Virus record (IMG/VR): IMGVR_UViG_3300028034_000051
Location: 8,414-72,413 of that record
Strand: one strand, 5' to 3'
DNA from: a virus
DNA length: 64,000 nucleotides
Shown: positions 26,829 through 63,263 of the stretch, one piece after another
How positions within the stretch are numbered: the first letter of the stretch is position 1
Layout of the letters: each line of letters begins with the position of its first letter
Made by a program: the position numbers and the translations under genes
The notes under the pieces: model-generated
The model's input: only the letters and a program-made list of their open reading frames with translations
Databases searched by the model: none
Told to the model about the DNA's origin: nothing

Positions 26829-27374
26829 TTAAATATTCTTTCTTGCAAGAGCTCCATTGCCGTGGAGCTTTTTTTCATTTCTAAGCCTAATCCTATCCAG
26901 TAATACTTCAAACGTCTCAGCAAATCTAATCATTGTAAACTGTACTCCTGGAGAAACATCATAGATCTGCTCTAATTCATCCATCATTCTTTCAAACTCT
27001 TGCTCTGTCAAATCATCTCTGCTTGTCTTATTTGTTATACCCATTGTTAACAGTTTGTCTATTGCTTCTATACCTTCAACCATCTCTTCTCTTAACTTAG
27101 CCAATACTGCAATAGGGTTATCATTAGCTCCATCCATATAAGGCGCTGTAAATATATTAGAATCACATTCTTGACACCTTTCTATTGGTAGTCTCCAGCT
27201 CTGTAACTTCTTAACTGCTTTCTTGATCACTACATCTGGTATATCAATTTCTCTTCGTTCCATGCCTGAAACAGCACTCTTTGAGTACCCTAATATTCTG
27301 CCTAACTCTGTCTGAGAAAGCCCTCTCTGCTTTCTAGTTTCCTTTAATACTGTTGCTACACACATCATTGTCAC
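26829..27374 (-). CDS. Xre-family HTH regulator
   Basis: LKETRKQRGLSQTELG..LGYSKSAVS..ER. Confidence 0.8.
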   Translation of the reverse strand: MTMMCVATVLKETRKQRGLSQTELGRILGYSKSAVSGMERREIDIPDVVIKKAVKKLQSWRLPIERCQECDSNIFTAPYMDGANDNPIAVLAKLREEMVEGIEAIDKLLTMGITNKTSRDDLTEQEFERMMDELEQIYDVSPGVQFTMIRFAETFEVLLDRIRLRNEKKLHGNGALARKNI

Positions 27375-33433: not shown

Positions 33434-33462
33434 ATTGTAACACATGCGTTACATATTGTCAA
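33434..33462 (-). promoter_or_regulatory. sigmaA promoter with embedded palindromic operator
   Basis: TTGACA-17-TACAAT; TGTAAC-N6-GTTACA overlapping the spacer. Confidence 0.8.
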
Positions 33463-33490
33463 GAGTTATTTCAATTTATTTCTATACAAA

Positions 33491-33523
33491 TAAAAAAAGC
33501 CCCGCCACCAAACGGCAGCGGGT
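33491..33523 (-). terminator. Late operon terminator
   Basis: CCCGCTGCC-GTTT-GGTGGCGGG then T run. Confidence 0.85.
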
Positions 33524-33527
33524 ACGA

Positions 33528-33979
33528 TTAGAATCTGTAATTGTATTCAGCTGATATACTTTTGTTCTTGATATCTAAGTCTACATCCAGACCAGGATCG
33601 GGCAGCGTCACTTGGTATTCCCTGATTTCTTTTGCGACTTTCCCTTATCAACTCGCTTGATTTCATTAATATGCTTATTAAGTTCCTTGACTGCATTCTC
33701 ATCCGTCTTCTCTTCCTGCTCTATTACTTCATTTCTAACCTCAGTCAGCAACTTTGCTACATCCTCATTCTCTACTCCGGCACGCTTAAGTCCATTTTTG
33801 ACAGCCTTAGTTATGTCTGGGATTGATGCATAAGCTACATCGTCAATCTCATTTTCTGTGCTTTCTACAAACTCTTTTCCTTCCTTGGCTAACTTTTTGA
33901 TATAACCTTTGCTTACTACAAAAGCAACAATACCACTCAATATGATAGGACCTAATGAATTCATTAATAACGCTTCCAT
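33528..33979 (-). CDS. Lysis membrane protein: 123-aa form (33608-33979) and predicted 150-aa -1 frameshift form ending in a beta-signal; candidate spanin
   Basis: N-terminal TM, helical/coiled-coil body, G-GGA-AAG at 33644-33638, -1 frame open to TAA 33528 just before terminator. Confidence 0.7.
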
Positions 33980-34027
33980 AAGTAACCATCTCCTCTTAAT
34001 TTTATATTTCTGTCAATTCTAATCAAA

Positions 34028-34753
34028 CTAACTCCATATATTTTGTTTCCATTCGTCGTTAATCAAATCCCTGCAAATCCCTTTGTATCCTTCTTCATTA
34101 TGATATAAGTCACAACTTATCTCTTCATAAAAATCAGGATATTTCATGATTAGACCGTGTTCAAAATGAATATCCTTCATTGAAGATTGGAATTTTAGCA
34201 TAATTGCTTCGAATTCATTATATCTTCTAGCTTGCATTCCCTTAAGATCATAGAAGCAAATTTCATTAAATTTAGATTCCATAATAAATTCAAGTAGTTC
34301 TTTGAATTCTTTCTCGTGCATATACCCTACAACTACATTGAGCCAGATTTTATCGACATCATTTTTGTCAATTTTTCTGTCCCATGCTTCAATTTCTTTT
34401 TCATTTGTAATATTAACTCCAACTGTATATGCCTTTTGAATAAGATTGTAGTCAATATCATGATCCTTGGTCATGAATGAGGTTTTAATATTGTGCTCAA
34501 TAGCAAAATCTAGTATTTGCTCTAAATCAGGATGTAACGTCGGGTCTCCACCAACCAGATTGAATTCATTAGTCTTATTTTTGTGAGCAAGCATAAATTG
34601 CTTTATTTTGCTAAGCTCAGCAACTTCCCCTTGACCTTTATCTTTGTTATTTTGAATACAAAATCCGCAACGGAAGTTACATTCGTTAGTTATCCGTAAA
34701 TCAATTAAACGAAAATGTTCATTTTCTAATTCTACATCTTGCATAATTATCAC
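34028..34753 (-). CDS. Radical SAM protein
   Basis: CNFRCGFC (CxxxCxxC) and GGDPTLHP; ATGA overlap with endolysin. Confidence 0.88.
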   Translation of the reverse strand: MIIMQDVELENEHFRLIDLRITNECNFRCGFCIQNNKDKGQGEVAELSKIKQFMLAHKNKTNEFNLVGGDPTLHPDLEQILDFAIEHNIKTSFMTKDHDIDYNLIQKAYTVGVNITNEKEIEAWDRKIDKNDVDKIWLNVVVGYMHEKEFKELLEFIMESKFNEICFYDLKGMQARRYNEFEAIMLKFQSSMKDIHFEHGLIMKYPDFYEEISCDLYHNEEGYKGICRDLINDEWKQNIWS

Positions 34754-35253
34754 TCCTTTTCAATTTCTACACGCTTCATCCACCCTCTGATGAACACCTT
34801 TTGACTCGGATCATTAAGAGCTATCTTAACGTATCTTTCACCCTGCAGGATATTCATGATCTTAACTAGCTCATCAGTATACTCAAATTCATTAACCGCA
34901 GCTGCAGTATTGGGTCCCATAACTCCATCGATTGCTATTTCATTTTCTCGAAAGCAATTGACAGCCATTTGCAAGTGCTTCGTTGCTGTGAATACGCCCA
35001 TGTTAACCGCCTGGTCAAAACATTCGATTCCTACTTGGACCGGAACATTTTCGTATTGCCAGTAGTTTTCTCGATATATTTCCTTAGCTTTCTCCAATGA
35101 CAAATCCCTCATATCACCTTCATAACCTGCTGCTCTAGCCACTTCTTCAGTAATGCCAAACTTAGTAATTCCTCCTCGATCTGCTTCATGATTGGAGTAG
35201 CCACCTTCGTAATTCAGTACTTCCTCGAATGCTTTCTCGAACTTTTTGCTCAC
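34750..35253 (-). CDS. Endolysin, glycoside hydrolase 108 with C-terminal PG-binding domain
   Basis: EGGYSNH..DRGG.T.FGIT, FD.AVNMG, DG..GP.T, F.RGW..R. Confidence 0.92.
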   Translation of the reverse strand: MSKKFEKAFEEVLNYEGGYSNHEADRGGITKFGITEEVARAAGYEGDMRDLSLEKAKEIYRENYWQYENVPVQVGIECFDQAVNMGVFTATKHLQMAVNCFRENEIAIDGVMGPNTAAAVNEFEYTDELVKIMNILQGERYVKIALNDPSQKVFIRGWMKRVEIEKE

Positions 35254-35300: not shown

Positions 35301-35588
35301 CTACGAAGTTATTGCATATATTAATGACGCTATTGCTACAAGCCACCCGCCCCATTTTCTAATTGTTTCTGCTAATTCATGCTTACCTTTTTCCGTATTC
35401 TCTATCTCATTAATCTTTTCTTCGTTCTGATTAATCTTTTGATAGCTTTCCATCATATCTTGCCTTAGTCCGTTGTACCTTTTGATTACACTTCGAGTCT
35501 GTGTCATTTCTTCTTTGAGACTTTGGATCATATCGAATAGCTCTTTATTTGAATACCACTCTTTTTCATTGTCTGTCATTGACCACAC
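35301..35588 (-). CDS. Holin-like / XhlA-like membrane protein
   Basis: Coiled coil with single C-terminal TM, upstream of endolysin. Confidence 0.65.
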   Translation of the reverse strand: MWSMTDNEKEWYSNKELFDMIQSLKEEMTQTRSVIKRYNGLRQDMMESYQKINQNEEKINEIENTEKGKHELAETIRKWGGWLVAIASLIYAITS

Positions 35589-45179: not shown

Positions 45180-47564
45180 TTATAGATTTTGTTTAATTGT
45201 CTTCCTAGTTAACCCATTCTTTTTAATATCATTATTGACCACACCAGTGATAGCCTCTGGATTTCTAGCAGCAAGATCAGCAAATGATTTAGCATCGACA
45301 GCATTAATATTTATATTGTATGTTTCTCCTCCTGACCCTTGATTGTTTAGAAAAGCTTTAGTATCTTCTCTGCTAAGTATAAGTTCTCCAGTTTGAGCTT
45401 TGATTAACCTTTCATCATTAGCTAATGGCTTTAGTCCCACCATGCCGCCTGAATGATAAGCATCTACCAATCCTCTTGCAGTTACAAGACCACCATTATG
45501 AGCCGTTGGAAAACCAGCAAAACTTAATACACTGTTAACTGCGGGTCCTACAATAGCTTTTTGAATCACTAATGATGCTACTTGATCAAGAAAATTATCA
45601 AAAACTTTACTTAAGCTTTTACCTTTAGCAATAGCAGCGGATAATCCTGAAATCATTTGGTTTTTAAACCTAATAAATTGCTCTCGAGCACTTTTAATTC
45701 TTTCAGTCATATTTTTCCAGGTCATTTCTTTCTTTAAAGCTGCATAATGGTTTTTAGCCCGGTTTATCACTTTAACAAATTTTTCCCATACACTTAAAGT
45801 AGGTAATTTTTCAGGAACATCACCTACTTTAATCGGGCCCATTCCTCCTTTATCAGCTCCTCCTTTTTTATCTCCTATATCAACATCGATAGTGAGTTTC
45901 CCTTTGAAAGCATCTACTATTTTTTTAATTTGTTTATATAACTCGGGGGCTCTCTGCTTAACTAAAATTAATATTTCATCAAAAGTATCTTTTGCTGTTT
46001 GTTTCATAGCTTCCCACAGTTCGCCCATTCCTTTTTTAGCTTTTTCAGACCACTTTTTGATTTCTCCAGCAATCTCTGGAGCTTTTTCTTTGACTATCTC
46101 AAATGTTTTATCTAAGTTTTTACCTATATTAGCTATGTGGTCTTCACCAACTCCTTCAAGAATCTGCCCAAGAAAACCATCATGTTCTTTTCCAACATTT
46201 TTATAAGATTTTTCTACATTATCTGCTACACTAGCAAATTTTACACCAAACAATTCAAGTTTTTTCATTATCCAATCTAAAACTCCACCTATAAATTTAG
46301 CTATTTTATCCCAATTATTTTTAACAACTTCATAAGACATAACAGCTACATTTTTAACTACTACATAAAAATCCAAGTTTCTATTAATCAACCATTTTAA
46401 TATTTTCCAAACAGAATTAAAAGCAGATTTGAATTTATCAAAAAAGTAACTTGCTGTTTTATTGCCACCGTTCATAATATTATCATACCATTCTTTAAAA
46501 TTGTTCCATAATTGGTCTAAATAATCTCTAACCCCCCAAAGATTTTGTTTCCACGCCGAATAAAAAGTATAGGCTAAAGCAATTATAATCGTCACAGGGT
46601 TAGTTAAAGAAACAAAAGCACTTGCCACAACACTTAAGGCTCCAATAATTGCTTCTATTCCAATTACCAGGCCTGCCAGTCCTGCTATAGCTGATAACAA
46701 TCCTGTAGCAAAAAGTCCAATTTGGACTATGTTTTGATGAATAGAATCCGGTAGTTCATTGAATGCCTTTATAGCTTCTCTAGCTTTATTAACAACCTTT
46801 GTGGCAATTGGTAATAAATACGAACCTAACTCTTCTCTGGCATTACGAACCTCTCCCAAAAAACCACGCCAGGAGTTAGCTAGTTCATCTCTAGTTCTAA
46901 CAGCATCTCCTTGAATTTCACTCATTTTTTCCATGATTACATTATATCTAAGCATAACTTTCTCCGACTCTGTCATTTCCCGAACCGATTTCTCAATTCC
47001 ATTCTTTAAAGCATATTGCTCCAAAGCAGCTTGTTGTGTATTAAAACCGAGCCTTTTTAAAGCTTCTGCTTCTCCTGTTAAAGCTCCAGTAAGAGCTTCA
47101 AATGCTCTGTCTGTTTTTATATTCCTAAAAGAAGATAAATCTACTGCTAATTTTGTTATAGCTTTACTCATTTCGGCAGCTTCTTTTTTGCTTTCAACCA
47201 TGTTTTTTAACATGCTCATAGAAGTACCTACATAATTTTTAATTGCATAATCTGATCTATTAACTGCCTCTGCTGTTTGCTCAGCCCATTCATTGATATC
47301 ATCTGCCATTGCTCCAAAGCTAACCTCTATTACATTCTGTAATTCCTTAGCATCAGATGCAGCTTTAATCAAAAATCCACCTGCTGTACCAATCCCTGCT
47401 AAGGCTGCCGTTGCTAATGCCCCGGCACGTTTAATTCCATTAGCTGCTGTTTTAGCTGTATTTGATAGATCTTTCAAACCTCTTTTTGCCGTGTTAATAC
47501 CACTTTTAAGTCCGCTAGTACCTGCTTTTATTCTTGCTAATATGCTTCCTGCATTATACGCCAT
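45180..47564 (-). CDS. Tail tape measure protein
   Basis: LAVDLSSF.N, LTGE.EALK.LG; C-terminal H.GG and INAVDA.SF. Confidence 0.9.
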   Translation of the reverse strand: MAYNAGSILARIKAGTSGLKSGINTAKRGLKDLSNTAKTAANGIKRAGALATAALAGIGTAGGFLIKAASDAKELQNVIEVSFGAMADDINEWAEQTAEAVNRSDYAIKNYVGTSMSMLKNMVESKKEAAEMSKAITKLAVDLSSFRNIKTDRAFEALTGALTGEAEALKRLGFNTQQAALEQYALKNGIEKSVREMTESEKVMLRYNVIMEKMSEIQGDAVRTRDELANSWRGFLGEVRNAREELGSYLLPIATKVVNKAREAIKAFNELPDSIHQNIVQIGLFATGLLSAIAGLAGLVIGIEAIIGALSVVASAFVSLTNPVTIIIALAYTFYSAWKQNLWGVRDYLDQLWNNFKEWYDNIMNGGNKTASYFFDKFKSAFNSVWKILKWLINRNLDFYVVVKNVAVMSYEVVKNNWDKIAKFIGGVLDWIMKKLELFGVKFASVADNVEKSYKNVGKEHDGFLGQILEGVGEDHIANIGKNLDKTFEIVKEKAPEIAGEIKKWSEKAKKGMGELWEAMKQTAKDTFDEILILVKQRAPELYKQIKKIVDAFKGKLTIDVDIGDKKGGADKGGMGPIKVGDVPEKLPTLSVWEKFVKVINRAKNHYAALKKEMTWKNMTERIKSAREQFIRFKNQMISGLSAAIAKGKSLSKVFDNFLDQVASLVIQKAIVGPAVNSVLSFAGFPTAHNGGLVTARGLVDAYHSGGMVGLKPLANDERLIKAQTGELILSREDTKAFLNNQGSGGETYNININAVDAKSFADLAARNPEAITGVVNNDIKKNGLTRKTIKQNL

Positions 47565-47977
47565 TAATCTTCACCTCCCTCTTCAGTACTGTCAAACACT
47601 TCTACATTTGGATTCTGCATCATTTGCTTACTTTCATTAGCTAATCCAATGCTTGCAAAGTCCTGTTGACCACTTTTATTTTGACTATCATTTTGCTTAA
47701 GTTCAATAATCTTCTCCGGTGGATCATCAGCAAATGCAGCTCCAATAGCAAAACGCAAAATATTATATTCTAAATTAGCTTCTTTCATCTTACGGTTTTG
47801 AATAGCAGCGTAAATATCAGCTATTTGTCTCGGACTATACCGGATCACAACTTCATCTGGCCCCATTTTGTATTCAGTTGCAATTTCTTCTACTACTTCA
47901 AATTCTGTTACCCTCGCAGATTCTTCACTACTCCCATCACTGGCTTCATCACTCCTGCGAGAGACTGCAAGTTTTTT
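47564..47977 (-). CDS. Tail chaperone -1 frameshift extension (gpT-like)
   Basis: -1 frame open from slippery A-AAA-AAC (47977-47971) to 47564. Confidence 0.75.
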   Translation of the reverse strand, partial: KKLAVSRRSDEASDGSSEESARVTEFEVVEEIATEYKMGPDEVVIRYSPRQIADIYAAIQNRKMKEANLEYNILRFAIGAAFADDPPEKIIELKQNDSQNKSGQQDFASIGLANESKQMMQNPNVEVFDSTEEGGED

Positions 47978-48339
47978 ACTATTTCCCCCACTCTATTAAC
48001 TTTGAATATAGCAGAAAACAATTCAATTTCTTTAGATAACGTTAAATTATCATCTAAAAACTCTTTATCTAGTCCAGCAGCAACTTCATAGATTTCTAGT
48101 AATACATCATCACTTAAATAAAGCAATAAACCTTCAATTTCATTCTCAATATTTTCTAAATCAAAATCTAAATTACCACTATCTATGTCCTTAACCATCT
48201 TGCCTAATACTTTCATCAGTTTCTTATATTTCTTACGTGGCAACTCAGTAATCAAAACATCTTCATCACCAATTGTAATTTCAACTTCATCTGGAATAAG
48301 GACATCATCAACTCTATTTTCTTCACTCAAAAATAACAA
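47908..48339 (-). CDS. Tail assembly chaperone (gpG-like)
   Basis: Between major tail protein and TMP; slippery site near 3' end. Confidence 0.8.
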   Translation of the reverse strand: MLFLSEENRVDDVLIPDEVEITIGDEDVLITELPRKKYKKLMKVLGKMVKDIDSGNLDFDLENIENEIEGLLLYLSDDVLLEIYEVAAGLDKEFLDDNLTLSKEIELFSAIFKVNRVGEIVKNLQSLAGVMKPVMGVVKNLRG

Positions 48340-62281: not shown

Positions 62282-62527
62282 CTAATTTTTAATTATAATT
62301 TCTTTCCTACTTAACTGCTTGACCACTTTCTCTCTTTCTTCTTGATCCAGATCTCCAAAAACATCATCAATCACTTTCTCACCAAATGTAGCTGCCATTC
62401 TAGCATATTTAATCTGTTCTTTCGACTGATCATGTTCTTCCCATTCATCTGCTCTCTCACGTAAGTAATCCACAAATGCTACTATTGCAAAGACTTCTTC
62501 TTTCTTACGCTTATTTATATAAGCCAT
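62282..62527 (-). CDS. Hypothetical protein
   Basis: Coupled ORF. Confidence 0.6.
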   Translation of the reverse strand: MAYINKRKKEEVFAIVAFVDYLRERADEWEEHDQSKEQIKYARMAATFGEKVIDDVFGDLDQEEREKVVKQLSRKEIIIKN

Positions 62528-62817
62528 TAAAATGCAACTGCCTGTAACTTGCCTGGAGACTCATTGATCATGTTTCCAGGGTTATTCATCTTAACTTTTG
62601 ATTTACGATTAATTGCTGAAACTTTAACCACTCTACTAGTTCTGATTTCCTGCTGAAAATAACTCTTCCGCATACTTTCTAATCTCTTTGGTGCTGATCC
62701 ATGACTCCTGATTGAATGAGAATGTCCGCAATTCTCACAATATAACCAGTCTATATTATTAAATCTATCTACTAAATAGATCTCTTTCCCACATCTTGGA
62801 CAGTACACTTTCCCCAC
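62527..62817 (-). CDS. Zinc-ribbon protein
   Basis: CPRCG...CENCG. Confidence 0.55.
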   Translation of the reverse strand: MGKVYCPRCGKEIYLVDRFNNIDWLYCENCGHSHSIRSHGSAPKRLESMRKSYFQQEIRTSRVVKVSAINRKSKVKMNNPGNMINESPGKLQAVAF

Positions 62818-63263
62818 TCCTCTCTTCTACTTGCTAGTTTTTGTTGGTGTTGGTCTATAAATTGCTCTATTAACTCTTTTCTAATCTTTTTACTACCTCT
62901 GTCATTTTTCATGACCAAACTTACAAAACAACAAATACAAATATCTATCAATGCTTCCACATCACTTTTCAACCTTGAGGTACAAACTCTGTAAAAACAT
63001 TCTCCAGCTACATCATATATTTCTTTCTCTCTTTGATTTACAATTGAAATTAATCTTTTGATATTAGCAGTCCATTTCTCGTTATACTCAATTTCTAACA
63101 AACCTATCGCTACTTGGGCTAGATCTAAATATTCACTAGCTAACTCTTTCCAATTACTTTCTGATCTTGCTACAACTATTTCACGAAATTCTTCTCTTAA
63201 CTTCTCACGCTGCTCTTCTGCTGTTGTACCTTTTGGATATGCTGGCTTTAATGTGATCATCAT
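62772..63263 (-). CDS. MazG-like protein
   Basis: KLREEFRE...EYLDLAQ; homolog of 17726-18190. Confidence 0.5.
   Translation of the reverse strand: MMITLKPAYPKGTTAEEQREKLREEFREIVVARSESNWKELASEYLDLAQVAIGLLEIEYNEKWTANIKRLISIVNQREKEIYDVAGECFYRVCTSRLKSDVEALIDICICCFVSLVMKNDRGSKKIRKELIEQFIDQHQQKLASRREEWGKCTVQDVGKRSI

What the first reader, a model, noticed from the sequence alone, without database searches (positions are those of the whole stretch)
33528..33979. Candidate new spanin type: -1 frameshift adds an outer-membrane beta-signal to an inner-membrane lysis protein
Seen: the last lysis gene encodes an N-terminal TM and a charged helical body. In frame near its end is AAG-GGA-AAG (G-GGA-AAG, 33644-33638). 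A -1 shift replaces SQKKSGNTK with VAKEIREYQVTLPDPGLDVDLDIKNKSISAEYNYRF-stop (150 aa total), ending 5 nt before the operon terminator. The tail is a strictly alternating amphipathic beta-hairpin (L-D-V-D-L-D-I, turn, I-S-A-E-Y-N-Y-R-F). Known: GGGAAAG is the lambda gpG/GT slippery heptamer; a terminal Y-x-F is the BAM beta-signal; described spanins use a lipoprotein to reach the outer membrane, and I see no lipobox gene in this cassette. Inference: short and long forms co-assemble at a fixed ratio into an inner-to-outer membrane bridge for lysis of a diderm Firmicute.
Basis: partly seen in the sequence, partly recalled or inferred. Interest (0 to 1): 0.9.

Follow-up and report, generated by a model that had tools for sequence, protein, structure and literature searches.

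The report
Orphan outer-membrane hairpin after lysis gene
Behind the last lysis gene of a phage of an outer-membrane-bearing Firmicute lies, out of frame, a short coding piece that matches the outer-membrane-type tail of a lysis protein in related phages, but whether it is still made (by a ribosomal slip or otherwise) or is a leftover remains open.

Summary
The gene at 33979-33608 (-) encodes 123 aa. G GGA AAG lies in frame at 33644-33638. The -1 frame opens there and runs 36 further codons to ...AEYNYRF-stop, 5 nt before a terminator, giving 150 aa. A contig from another sample is identical, so there is no indel.

New result: the last 15 tail residues resemble the C-terminus of a Halanaerobium-prophage family (P0013). 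None of 824 null frames scores as high. That family has a signal peptide, a long helix and a C-terminal hairpin ending GFDFQF. Its gene overlaps the end of an Rz-like gene at the end of the lysis cassette. This scan noted that pair before on other DNA (e1-371526). So the tail is a real outer-membrane-anchor-type module.

The frameshift is unproven:
- Given the Lys/Gly-rich peptide, a slippery heptamer is expected in half of synonymous recodings.
- The carrier's charge bias predicts N-out/C-in.
- It matches no spanin family.
- None of 5 protein relatives carries the tail in frame, and their DNA was unobtainable.

My odds:
- truncated remnant of a non-lipoprotein spanin-like gene: 0.42
- -1 frameshift fusion: 0.25
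- GTG-restart micro-peptide: 0.10
- other: the remainder

The parts
33608..33979 (-). Last gene of the lysis cassette: 123 aa, one N-terminal hydrophobic helix, charged helical body, basic end KGKSQKKSGNTK. Member of a small unnamed family.
   Evidence: Relatives are P0002 (79% identity, Ca. Frackibacter) and P0003-P0006 (28-48% in the alignment). No Pfam, PHROG or NCBIfam family.
33638..33644 (-). G GGA AAG heptamer in X XXY YYZ register of the 0 frame
   Evidence: 1 of 3 in-frame GGGAAAG sites among 79 in-frame XXXYYYZ sites of the window.
33528..33644 (-). -1 frame open stretch: 38 codons plus TAA (GKVAKEIREYQVTLPDPGLDVDLDIKNKSISAEYNYRF)
   Evidence: TGA TAA lie directly upstream in this frame.
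33531..33596 (-). Hairpin-like part of the tail (PGLDVDLDIKNKSISAEYNYRF). Its last 15 residues resemble the C-terminus of the P0013 family of Halanaerobium prophages.
   Evidence: C-anchored BLOSUM62 scores 24 and 37; 0 of 824 null stretches reach them (maximum 20 over all settings); shuffles 0.0001 and 0. for the alignment.
33609..33611 (-). GTG overlapping the 0-frame stop TGA (33610-33608). Possible restart codon of a 27-aa micro-ORF, MTLPDPG...YNYRF.
   Evidence: Upstream SD-like pairing is -4.9 kcal/mol, against a gene mean of -8.2 (sd 5.1) and a random mean of -2.5; 19% of random sites are as good.
33491..33522 (-). Intrinsic terminator of the lysis operon (9-bp stem, 7 GC pairs, T-run)
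33434..33462 (-). Promoter-like site (TTGACA-17-TACAAT, TG) for the next gene at 33390-32911
34028..34753 (-). Radical SAM protein inside the cassette (CNFRCGFC). Only the N-terminal half matches; no specific family. The likely true start is the ATG at 34744, preceded by GGAG.
34750..35253 (-). Endolysin: GH108 plus PG_binding_3, no signal sequence
   Evidence: 2.1e-23, 3e-13; phrog_315, 1.1e-43
35301..35588 (-). 95-aa protein with a coiled-coil N-terminus and a C-terminal hydrophobic anchor. Homologue of the 125-aa first cassette gene of the Halanaerobium prophages.
   Evidence: 41.6% over 77 aa, E 2e-16. The 125-aa relative hits phrog_937 'hemolysin' only weakly (0.032).

Best explanation
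The 123-aa product is a single-pass membrane protein of the lysis cassette. It ends at its own stop codon, as its relatives do. By charge bias it sits N-out/C-in, which makes it holin-like rather than Rz-like. The 85 nt between its stop and the terminator, plus the 30 nt before the stop, hold in the -1 frame a copy of an outer-membrane-anchor hairpin. In intact relatives (Halanaerobium prophages) that hairpin is the C-terminus of a separately translated protein with a signal peptide and a long helix. The gene for that protein overlaps the end of an Rz-like inner-membrane gene at the end of the cassette, so the pair looks like a two-part spanin without a lipoprotein. Here the signal peptide, the helix and the Rz-like partner are missing. 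I read the tail as the truncated 3' end of such a gene. It was probably left behind when the cassette was rebuilt by module exchange, with the radical SAM gene and the 123-aa gene now standing where the relatives have other genes. On this reading it is not made in meaningful amounts. Shown: the sequence facts, the likeness of the tail to the relatives' hairpin, the relatives' gene order, and the charge bias. Inferred: topology, the remnant status, and the outer-membrane role of the hairpin.
For: 1) Tail homology. The C-anchored score of the last 15 residues against P0013-type C-termini is 24 (L002) and 37 (L006). At that length 0 of 824 null open stretches reach these values (mean -16, sd 8.6, maximum 16; maximum 20 at 16 residues). 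Shuffles reach them at 0.0001 and 0. DIKN and RF are identical at the same distance from the stop.
2) In relatives the hairpin belongs to a 146-aa protein with a signal peptide and a helix at residues 32-117. Its gene overlaps a 121-aa gene that hits 4 PHROG 'Rz-like spanin' families (3.3e-5 to 0.038). The same ending is present in 6 of 12 loci fetched; of the other 6, 3 end before that place and 3 hold other cassettes.
3) The bodies are unrelated. For the 123-aa family against the P0013 family, hhalign gives probability 0.2%. For P0001 against P0012, BLASTP gives E 26. So only the tail was kept or acquired.
4) No export route of its own. The -1 frame upstream is full of stops, and no secreted or lipoprotein ORF lies elsewhere in the window.
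5) Charge bias. K+R in the N-flank against the C-flank is 0 vs 5 (window), 0 vs 4, 0 vs 2, 1 vs 3, 1 vs 5, 2 vs 2 and 1 vs 3 in the 7 family members. It is 4 vs 1 in the Rz-like P0012.
6) The 0-frame end KSQKKSxNxK-stop is shared with P0002 and resembles the end of P0003. None of 5 relatives (99-138 aa) has the tail in frame.
7) The slip site is cheap. The probability of any in-frame XXXYYYZ given the peptide and codon usage is 0.50, and 0.16 with the -1 frame open to YNYRF.
8) A contig of run X5 shares 33467-33545 (3 differences) and then departs. Its next 30 nt align to the window's tail with a 1-nt offset (15 of 20, p 0.012-0.033). That would break the frame between the two strands.
Against: A remnant has to keep an intact 36-codon frame, the alternating pattern and the terminal F by luck or youth. 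The -1 frame reaches back exactly to an in-frame G GGA AAG (joint chance 0.16, and only if the hairpin landed in the -1 frame). The phage would then have no recognisable outer-membrane disruptor, although its host is diderm and the cassette is found near-identical in runs of several studies. In the survey of Kongari et al., 91 of 677 phages had no spanin found (PMC6139136, passage read). The two residue differences between the window and P0002 in the overlap (G to E, T to I) can each be made by one change at a 0-frame second position, and that change would be silent in the -1 frame (AGG to AGA, TAC to TAT). This hints at constraint on the -1 frame, but it is my inference from the protein alone, because the DNA was not seen. 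The X5 offset rests on 30 nt of one contig at depth 3.8 and includes an A8 run. The positive-inside rule (recalled) is statistical, not proof.
Confidence: 0.42

Rival explanations
1. Programmed -1 frameshift. A fraction of ribosomes slips at G GGA AAG and makes a 150-aa protein with an N-terminal membrane helix, a helical body and a C-terminal hairpin. The hairpin is homologous to the outer-membrane anchor of the relatives' secreted lysis protein. The long form would bridge the inner and outer membrane in one chain. This is the reverse polarity of T1 gp11, with no lipid anchor.
For: The heptamer is in the right register at the first codon where the -1 frame is open. The same phage has the canonical tail-chaperone arrangement: A AAA AAC at 47977 with 135 open -1 codons, in a gene that hits phrog_1442, upstream of the tape measure gene. 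The tail is a real anchor-type module and has no other export route. The architecture membrane helix / helical body / hairpin mirrors the relatives' signal peptide / helix / hairpin. Four copies of the relatives' residues 90-146 are modelled as an assembly in which strand 123-132 of one copy pairs with strand 134-146 of the next. The score is 0.71 against 0.02 for the best of 3 controls. The mark was reached by 20 of 30 proteins solved as pairs of one chain and by 1 of 23 solved as single chains. The runs agree in at least 98% of contacts and the partner pLDDT is at least 84. The calibration held two copies and my own alignment was used, so the counts hold only roughly. No other outer-membrane disruptor candidate lies in the window. 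The substitutions against P0002 could be silent in the -1 frame (inference).
Against: The charge bias predicts that the C-terminus is cytoplasmic. There is no match to Rz-like families. The heptamer is expected in 0.50 of recodings of this peptide. Two other ORFs in the window (integrase, 57 codons; 26829-27374, 42 codons) show slip site plus a long -1 run with no evident reason. No stimulatory structure was found (z 0.70; 147 of 200 shuffles fold as well), although lambda G/GT needs none (recalled). None of 5 protein relatives shows a fused form. The X5 variant may break the frame. Family-invariant glycines of the hairpin (G137, G141) are S and E in the tail.
Confidence: 0.25
2. Separate micro-gene. 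Ribosomes that terminate at TGA (33610-33608) restart at the overlapping GTG (33611-33609) and make a 27-residue peptide, MTLPDPGLDVDLDIKNKSISAEYNYRF. That is the hairpin alone. It would leave the cytoplasm with the endolysin through holin lesions and act on the outer membrane from inside.
For: The GTGA overlap exists. SD-like pairing of -4.9 kcal/mol lies between random sites and real genes. The peptide would be exactly the part homologous to the relatives' hairpin. The endolysin has no signal sequence, so a large-hole holin pathway is expected (inference). This route does not depend on the carrier's topology.
Against: Any -1 ORF across a TGA stop has an NTG codon there, so a start codon is expected in 3 of 4 cases. 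19% of random positions have as good an SD. The peptide is acidic, unlike the cationic phage peptide known to disrupt the outer membrane (phiKT gp28, recalled). It lacks the helix that nucleates assembly in the model of the relatives. No such peptide is on record in any library searched. The apparent precedent in this operon, the radical SAM gene, more likely starts at a downstream ATG with its own GGAG.
Confidence: 0.1
3. The tail is a substrate or precursor peptide of the neighbouring radical SAM enzyme, with aromatic cross-links in YNYRF (lead from earlier notes e1-6191306 and e1-6191317).
For: A radical SAM gene of no assignable family sits one gene upstream. The tail is rich in aromatics at its very end.
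Against: The enzyme has 241 aa and only its N-terminal core matches. RiPP-maturase models score 21-27 bits against cut-offs of 340-650 bits. The best-scoring family is viperin-like, at 54 bits against a cut-off of 180. The tail's likeness to the relatives' hairpin is explained without it, and the relatives have DUF5662 instead of a radical SAM gene at that place.
Confidence: 0.04
4. Pure chance: an accidental open frame in a 3' untranslated stretch, with no relation to any protein.
For: 38 open codons have about 0.06 probability at this base composition (my estimate from 35% GC). Y/F-rich endings are common (24 in six frames). The codon score is intermediate: LLR 2.26, the 6.7th percentile of true coding windows and the top 10% of non-gene frames.
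Against: The C-anchored likeness to the P0013 family is not reached by any of 824 null frames. It lies at the equivalent place in the equivalent cassette.
Confidence: 0.04

Closest known systems
Two-component spanins (lambda Rz/Rz1; Kongari et al. 2018, PMC6139136, passages read)
   Same: Position at the end of the lysis cassette of a phage of a diderm host. In the relatives (L002 type) an Rz-like inner-membrane gene is overlapped at its end by a gene for a periplasm-exposed partner aimed at the outer membrane.
   Different: The outer-membrane partner is defined as a lipoprotein with a lipobox. Neither the window's tail nor P0013 has a Cys or a lipobox. P0013 has a signal-peptidase-I type signal and a C-terminal hairpin ending F-x-F. 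In the window no i-spanin-like gene is recognisable.
Unimolecular spanin (T1 gp11; PMC6139136, passages read)
   Same: If the frameshift product exists, it would be one chain anchored in both membranes.
   Different: [quoted passage not shown] Here the polarity is reversed, the body is helical and there is no lipid anchor.
Programmed -1 frameshift of phage tail assembly chaperones (lambda G/GT, G GGA AAG; recalled)
   Same: The heptamer and register are identical, and the extension is reached only in the -1 frame. The window's own chaperone gene shows the canonical case with A AAA AAC.
   Different: G/GT is conserved in position across tailed phages and has protein evidence. Here conservation could not be tested, and the extension is only 36 codons.
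P0013 family: last lysis-cassette protein of Halanaerobium prophages
   Same: The C-terminal hairpin: tail ...GLDVDL-DIKNKSISAEYNYRF against ...GVNVVPADIKNSGVILGFDFRF. Both end at the stop codon of the cassette's last gene.
   Different: P0013 has its own signal peptide and an 86-residue helix. The window's tail has neither and is out of frame with an unrelated gene.
C-terminal beta-signal of outer-membrane proteins recognised by BamA, and oligomeric barrels built from short hairpins (trimeric autotransporter anchors, MspA, alpha-haemolysin stems; all recalled)
   Same: Alternating hydrophobic pattern, terminal aromatic-x-F, and a coiled-coil stalk above strand-paired hairpins in the model.
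   Different: No sequence family match (PF24653 Phage_OMP absent). Two strands per chain is fewer than in autotransporter anchors. Membrane insertion is untested.

Membership tests
i-spanin (Rz-like) | N-terminal transmembrane domain with N-in/C-out topology | tested here: not met
   The transmembrane helix is present, but K+R is 0 in the N-flank against 5 in the C-flank. The Rz-like P0012 shows 4 against 1. The topology is predicted from the positive-inside rule (recalled), not measured.
i-spanin (Rz-like) | Sequence membership in a described Rz-like family | tested here: not met
   No 'Rz-like spanin' PHROG at E up to 1 for any of the 6 family members. P0012 of the relatives hits 4 such families.
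i-spanin (Rz-like) | Helical or coiled-coil periplasmic domain; last position in the lysis cassette | tested here: inconclusive
   All-helical model, but mean pLDDT is 54.7. The position is met.
o-spanin / u-spanin | Lipoprotein signal with lipobox Cys | tested here: not met
   No Cys in the tail. The lipobox scan found nothing in the cassette.
u-spanin (T1 gp11 type) | N-terminal outer-membrane lipid anchor plus C-terminal transmembrane domain | tested here: not met
   The transmembrane helix is N-terminal and the putative outer-membrane element is C-terminal.
Programmed -1 ribosomal frameshift | X XXY YYZ heptamer in the 0 frame, followed by an open -1 frame past the 0-frame stop | tested here: met
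   The chance expectation is 0.16 for this peptide.
Programmed -1 ribosomal frameshift | Heptamer and extension conserved in relatives | not testable with these tools
Programmed -1 ribosomal frameshift | Downstream stimulatory RNA structure (not required in all cases) | tested here: not met
   MFE -13.2 kcal/mol, z 0.70.
Programmed -1 ribosomal frameshift | Trans-frame protein observed | not testable with these tools
   No RNA or proteome data available.
P0013 family (non-lipoprotein spanin-like partner of Halanaerobium prophages) | C-terminal hairpin ...G-V-N-V-V-P-A-x-I-x-N-S-G-[VI]-I-L-G-F-D-F-x-F-stop | tested here: met
   The likeness is significant, but only 2 of 10 family-invariant hairpin positions are identical in the tail (G125, F146).
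P0013 family (non-lipoprotein spanin-like partner of Halanaerobium prophages) | Own signal peptide and long helix; gene overlapping an Rz-like gene | tested here: not met
   Stops lie upstream in the -1 frame. The bodies are unrelated.
Outer-membrane protein with BAM beta-signal | C-terminal aromatic residue with alternating hydrophobic pattern | tested here: met
   I-S-A-E-Y-N-Y-R-F. The ending alone is common: 24 cases in six frames.
Outer-membrane protein with BAM beta-signal | Export to the periplasm and insertion in the outer membrane | not testable with these tools
   Needs fractionation or reporter fusions.
Holin | Small membrane protein of the lysis cassette with a charged, basic C-terminal end; lethal hole formation | tested here: inconclusive
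   Size, single transmembrane helix, N-out/C-in charge bias and basic end fit. There is no family match. Function is untested.

The most novel reading that the evidence does not exclude
A -1 ribosomal slip at G GGA AAG turns an inner-membrane lysis protein into a 150-residue single-chain envelope bridge. Its C-terminal hairpin is borrowed from the non-lipoprotein, BAM-type outer-membrane partner of Halanaerobiales phage spanin-like pairs. This would be a lipid-free, reverse-polarity unimolecular spanin made at a set ratio to its short form.
Probability: 0.25. Interest if true: 0.85.

Novelty: new variant of a known kind. Interest (0 to 1): 0.6.

Why it matters
All described spanins reach the outer membrane through a lipoprotein (PMC6139136, passages read). 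In that survey 91 of 677 phages of Gram-negative hosts had no spanin found. Phages of diderm Firmicutes are almost unstudied. My searches for spanin with Negativicutes (3 papers, none on the subject by title or abstract), with Halanaerobium (0 papers) and for o-spanin with beta-barrel (12 papers, 10 listed, none describing such a protein by title or abstract) found nothing.

The tail in this window ties a Frackibacter-type phage to a family of Halanaerobium-prophage proteins. Those proteins appear to anchor in the outer membrane by a beta-hairpin with a terminal F-x-F instead of a lipid. If that holds, outer-membrane disruption in this lineage depends on BamA-type insertion. That would be a new answer to an old problem and would give a handle for annotating spanin-less phages. 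If the frameshift is real as well, it would be a second use of recoding in phage late genes, beside the tail chaperone. If the tail is a remnant, the locus is still a useful record of how lysis cassettes are rebuilt.

Tried and rejected
DNA of relatives. Six collection scans with P0002 or the family alignment A1 were made (viral, genome and metagenome contigs). They matched 14, 229, 370, 552, 590 and 253 pattern stretches, and none encoded a relative. The radical SAM protein gave no pattern match in viral contigs. Exact patterns from the tail end and from the X5 loose end gave 0 matches in viral contigs. tblastn against 50,697 phage records gave no match for the 123-aa protein. For the tail it gave only one chance-level match (E 6) in Pantoea phage LIMEzero, which is held as two records.

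Reads. No RNA holder was listed. All runs laid were contigs. In X3, X5 and X7 the stretch 33531-33607 has little or no cover while both sides have some. No contig joins across it, so I draw nothing from that.

Structure. The AlphaFold2 model of the 123-aa protein has mean pLDDT 54.7, so I made no fold search with it. The monomer model of P0013 leaves residues 119-146 without strands at pLDDT under 50. The hairpin is therefore inferred from the pattern and from the four-copy model only. I could not fold the 150-aa trans-frame product, because a -1 product cannot be written by reference.

Families. The Atlas look-alikes of the tail all score under 0.9. One row carried PF24653 Phage_OMP in 14% of its members, and that family has no match in the record. 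No paper holds the name. Atlas look-alikes of P0013 are unnamed viral clusters.

Codon usage. The tail's synonymous codons are atypical (0.4th percentile). So are those of the 123-aa gene body (2.2nd percentile), so this says nothing about coding. The LLR is intermediate.

Rejected idea: that the 123-aa gene is itself a frameshifted P0013 homologue. hhalign gives probability 0.2%.

Rejected idea: that the radical SAM gene shows SD-less GTGA coupling in this operon. An ATG with GGAG lies 9 nt downstream.

Rejected idea: that diderm Firmicutes lack Lol and so cannot use lipoprotein spanins. The passages read say Halanaerobiales do have LolA and LolCDE but no LolB, and that only Negativicutes lack LolA and LolB (PMC5007114).

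Supplements of papers were closed. Table S4 of PMC6139136 (frames of o-spanin genes) was not seen.
Full report
OBSERVATION. The window is part of a 72.4-kb virus record. On the minus strand a lysis cassette runs from 35588 to 33528:
- a 95-aa protein with a coiled-coil N-terminus and a C-terminal hydrophobic anchor
- a GH108 plus PG_binding_3 endolysin without a signal sequence
- a 241-aa radical SAM protein
- the 123-aa target gene

G GGA AAG lies in X XXY YYZ register at 33644-33638. In the -1 frame TGA TAA stand directly before it. From it the frame reads 36 further codons, VAKEIREYQVTLPDPGLDVDLDIKNKSISAEYNYRF, to TAA at 33530-33528, giving 150 aa in all. A 9-bp terminator stem starts 5 nt later. 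A contig from another sample and study (X2, 713 nt) is identical over 33458-34170, and a contig of X7 is identical over 33619-33770. The two-frame layout is therefore not an error of this one assembly. These are contigs, not raw reads.

HOW MUCH IS CHANCE.
- In 77 non-overlapping ORFs of the window there are 79 in-frame XXXYYYZ heptamers. Six of them, in five ORFs, are followed by a -1 frame that runs past the 0-frame stop.
- One is the canonical tail-chaperone case: A AAA AAC at 47977 with 135 open codons, in a gene that hits phrog_1442, upstream of the tape measure gene.
- Two lie in one ORF whose end is overlapped by an ordinary zinc-ribbon gene with its own SD.
- Two (integrase, 57 codons; 26829-27374, 42 codons) have no evident reason.
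- The sixth is the target.
- Given the Lys/Gly-rich 0-frame peptide DKGKSQKKSGNTK and the phage's codon usage, 0.50 of random synonymous recodings contain an in-frame slippery heptamer. In 0.16 the -1 frame is also open from that site to YNYRF.
- Endings of the type aromatic-x-aromatic-x-aromatic-stop occur 24 times in the six frames.
- No RNA structure follows the site (z 0.70).
- Codon statistics do not decide.

The heptamer and the open frame are therefore weak evidence by themselves.

RELATIVES OF THE CARRIER GENE. A word-indexed search found one relative. It is P0002, 125 aa and 79% identical, named by NCBI as a hypothetical protein of a Candidatus Frackibacter MAG (Halobacteroidaceae, Halanaerobiales). 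A full HMMER pass over 1.84 billion representatives found 6 proteins at E up to 0.001. These were the window's own protein, four relatives of 99-138 aa, and a partial match in a 1302-aa protein.

None of the five relatives carries the tail in frame. The three closest (window, P0002, P0003) share the 0-frame end G-[KN]-x-x-K-x-S-x-x-x-K-stop. The 0 frame is therefore read to its stop.

No family of Pfam, PHROGs or NCBIfam fits. The DNA of none of these relatives could be obtained. The conservation test that would settle the frameshift could not be run.

The only hint comes from the protein. The two differences between the window and P0002 in the overlap (G to E, T to I) can each arise by a single change at a 0-frame second position. 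That position is a -1-frame third position, and the changes would be silent there. This is my inference, not an observation.

THE KEY NEW RESULT. I used the endolysin as a handle to fetch 12 viral loci. Nine of them (49% endolysin identity) share the first cassette gene (41.6% identity to the 95-aa protein). Their cassettes continue with an 82-aa membrane protein, a DUF5662 protein and a 121-aa protein (P0012). P0012 has a strongly basic N-flank and hits four PHROG 'Rz-like spanin' families (3.3e-5 to 0.038).

Overlapping the end of the P0012 gene by 14 nt is a 146-aa protein (P0013). It has a signal peptide (…VVNAQE, no Cys), a long helix and the C-terminus …IGIITGVNVVPANIENSGVILGFDFQF-stop. 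The ending is present in 6 of the 12 loci. Three loci stop short of it and three hold other cassettes.

The family has 35 members at E up to 0.01. They include proteins of Halanaerobium saccharolyticum, H. salsuginis and a Halanaerobiales MAG. The hairpin is its most conserved part, with the terminal F invariant.

The window's tail aligns to this C-terminus from the stop codon backwards: DIKNKSISAEYNYRF against DIKNSGVILGFDFRF. The ungapped C-anchored BLOSUM62 score over 15 residues is 24 (L002) and 37 (L006). At that length, 824 other open stretches of at least 30 codons from the six frames of the window reach at most 16 (mean -16, sd 8.6). At 16 residues the null maximum is 20, and the observed scores are 23 and 36. 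Shuffles of the tail reach the observed values at 0.0001 and 0. I chose the length of 15 after seeing a local tblastn alignment. Lengths 9 and 16 give the same picture. With one gap the likeness extends to GLDVDL against GVNVVP.

The bodies of the two proteins are unrelated. The tail is thus a copy, or a close analogue, of the anchor hairpin of a non-lipoprotein, spanin-like partner protein. This scan had already noted that pair in a Halanaerobium phage on other DNA (e1-371526). I reached it independently through the endolysin.

WHAT THE HAIRPIN DOES IN THE RELATIVES. The monomer model gives a confident helix at residues 32-117 and leaves 119-146 unstructured. Four copies of residues 90-146 are modelled as a helical bundle over a sheet. 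In that sheet, strand 123-132 of one copy pairs antiparallel with strand 134-146 of the next.
- Score 0.71 against 0.02 for the best of 3 controls.
- The mark was reached by 20 of 30 proteins solved as pairs of one chain and by 1 of 23 solved as single chains.
- The runs agree in at least 98% of contacts, and the partner pLDDT is at least 84.
- The calibration held two copies and my own alignment was used, so the counts hold only roughly.

The model supports self-assembly. It does not show membrane insertion. Halanaerobiales have BamA, TamB and Skp, and also LolA and LolCDE but no LolB (PMC5007114, passages read). A lipoprotein route is therefore not excluded in this host, and the hairpin is a choice rather than a necessity.

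WHAT THIS MEANS FOR THE WINDOW. The tail has no signal peptide, helix or start of its own. The -1 frame upstream is closed. No secreted or lipoprotein candidate exists elsewhere in the window. Three readings remain.

(a) Remnant. The 3' end of a P0013-type gene survived a rebuild of the cassette. Evidence for it:
- The bodies are unrelated.
- The Rz-like partner is missing.
- The carrier has a native, conserved 0-frame end.
- The heptamer is cheap.
- The carrier's charge bias is decisive for topology. K+R is 0 before and 5 after the membrane helix, and the same direction holds in 6 of 7 family members with none opposite. The Rz-like P0012 shows 4 and 1. By the positive-inside rule (recalled) the C-terminus, and anything appended to it, would be cytoplasmic.
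- A contig of run X5 shares the terminator and the last 18 nt of the tail, then departs. Its next 30 nt align to the window with a 1-nt offset (15 of 20, p 0.012-0.033). That would put the two strands of the hairpin in different frames. This rests on one low-depth contig and an A8 run.

(b) Frameshift fusion. It is the only way to export the hairpin. It gives an architecture that mirrors P0013. It explains why the frame is open exactly back to the heptamer. It would supply the outer-membrane disruptor that the phage otherwise lacks. It requires the topology prediction to be wrong.

(c) Restart at the GTG that overlaps the stop, giving a 27-residue hairpin peptide. This is mechanically ordinary, but the SD is weak, and the peptide is acidic and has no known precedent.

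I put (a) at 0.42, (b) at 0.25 and (c) at 0.10. A radical SAM substrate gets 0.04 and pure chance 0.04. The rest is unassigned.

COMPARISON WITH THE KNOWN. Spanins as defined (PMC6139136, passages read) are of two kinds. One is an inner-membrane protein plus an outer-membrane lipoprotein. [quoted passage not shown] The window's locus meets neither definition (see the membership table).

It works like a spanin only under reading (b). The relatives' P0012/P0013 pair works like a two-component spanin, with a beta-hairpin in place of the lipid. I found no paper on such a protein. The searches were: spanin with Negativicutes (3 papers, unrelated by title or abstract), spanin with Halanaerobium (0), o-spanin with beta-barrel (12, with 10 listings seen), and spanin with frameshift (43, with 15 listings seen; only PMC6139136 was read, in passages). 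An earlier unchecked note of this scan reports a conserved -1 slip that adds a barrel anchor to a holin-like gene in Myxococcus prophages (e1-5865204). If that holds, reading (b) would be a second, independent case of the same design.

VERDICT. The outer-membrane-anchor nature of the tail is now backed by homology. The frameshift and the spanin role of the carrier are not. This is a new variant of a known kind, of moderate to high interest, and decidable by one DNA look-up and one mass-spectrometry run.

Noticed in passing
L002:5187-5979 (also L004, L005, L006, L008, L010): Halanaerobium-type prophages end their lysis cassette with an Rz-like 121-aa gene. Its end is overlapped by a 146-aa gene for a protein with a signal peptide, a long helix and a C-terminal hairpin, without a lipobox. 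Four copies of its C-terminal 57 residues are modelled as a strand-paired assembly (score 0.71 against 0.02 for the best control).
   Followed up: partly
window 34028-34753 (-): A 241-aa radical SAM protein sits between the endolysin and the last lysis gene. Only residues 17-108 match radical SAM cores. The best family is viperin-like, at 54 bits against a cut-off of 180. The relatives have a DUF5662 protein at this place instead.
   Followed up: partly
L001:48-329 and window 35301-35389; loose ends at 35389 in runs X2, X3, X5, X7: The record holds two tandem prophages. The left one starts, at the very edge of the record, with a 93-aa homologue of the 95-aa first lysis gene. Contigs of four runs match the window up to 35389 and then all carry the same other sequence. 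One such contig (X2) runs from 35389 down through the endolysin gene to 34286, so a variant with a different upstream sequence shares at least that part of the cassette; whether that sequence is the left prophage's was not checked.
   Followed up: partly
L001:331-1446 and L001:2112-3149: A reverse transcriptase (YMDDFVILG) lies next to a tail-fibre-region gene that ends in a C-type-lectin-like ...GGCRLACDPL. A similar short ORF fragment lies between them. It looks like a diversity-generating retroelement. The L005 relative carries a similar reverse transcriptase.
   Followed up: no
window 47564-48339 (-): Canonical tail assembly chaperone frameshift of the right-hand prophage: A AAA AAC at 47977, a -1 frame open for 135 codons, upstream of the 794-aa tape measure gene.
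   Followed up: partly
window 62527-62817 (-): A 96-aa zinc-ribbon gene (CPRCG...CENCG) overlaps the end of the 163-aa gene 62772-63263. Two in-frame GGGAAAG heptamers lie in the overlap. It has its own GAGGAG SD and a GTG start, so it is an ordinary overlapping gene and not a frameshift.
   Followed up: partly
window 33467-33545 in runs X5 and X7: The terminator-promoter spacer behind the cassette is shared with contigs whose flanks differ on both sides, which suggests a recombination hotspot between modules.
   Followed up: no
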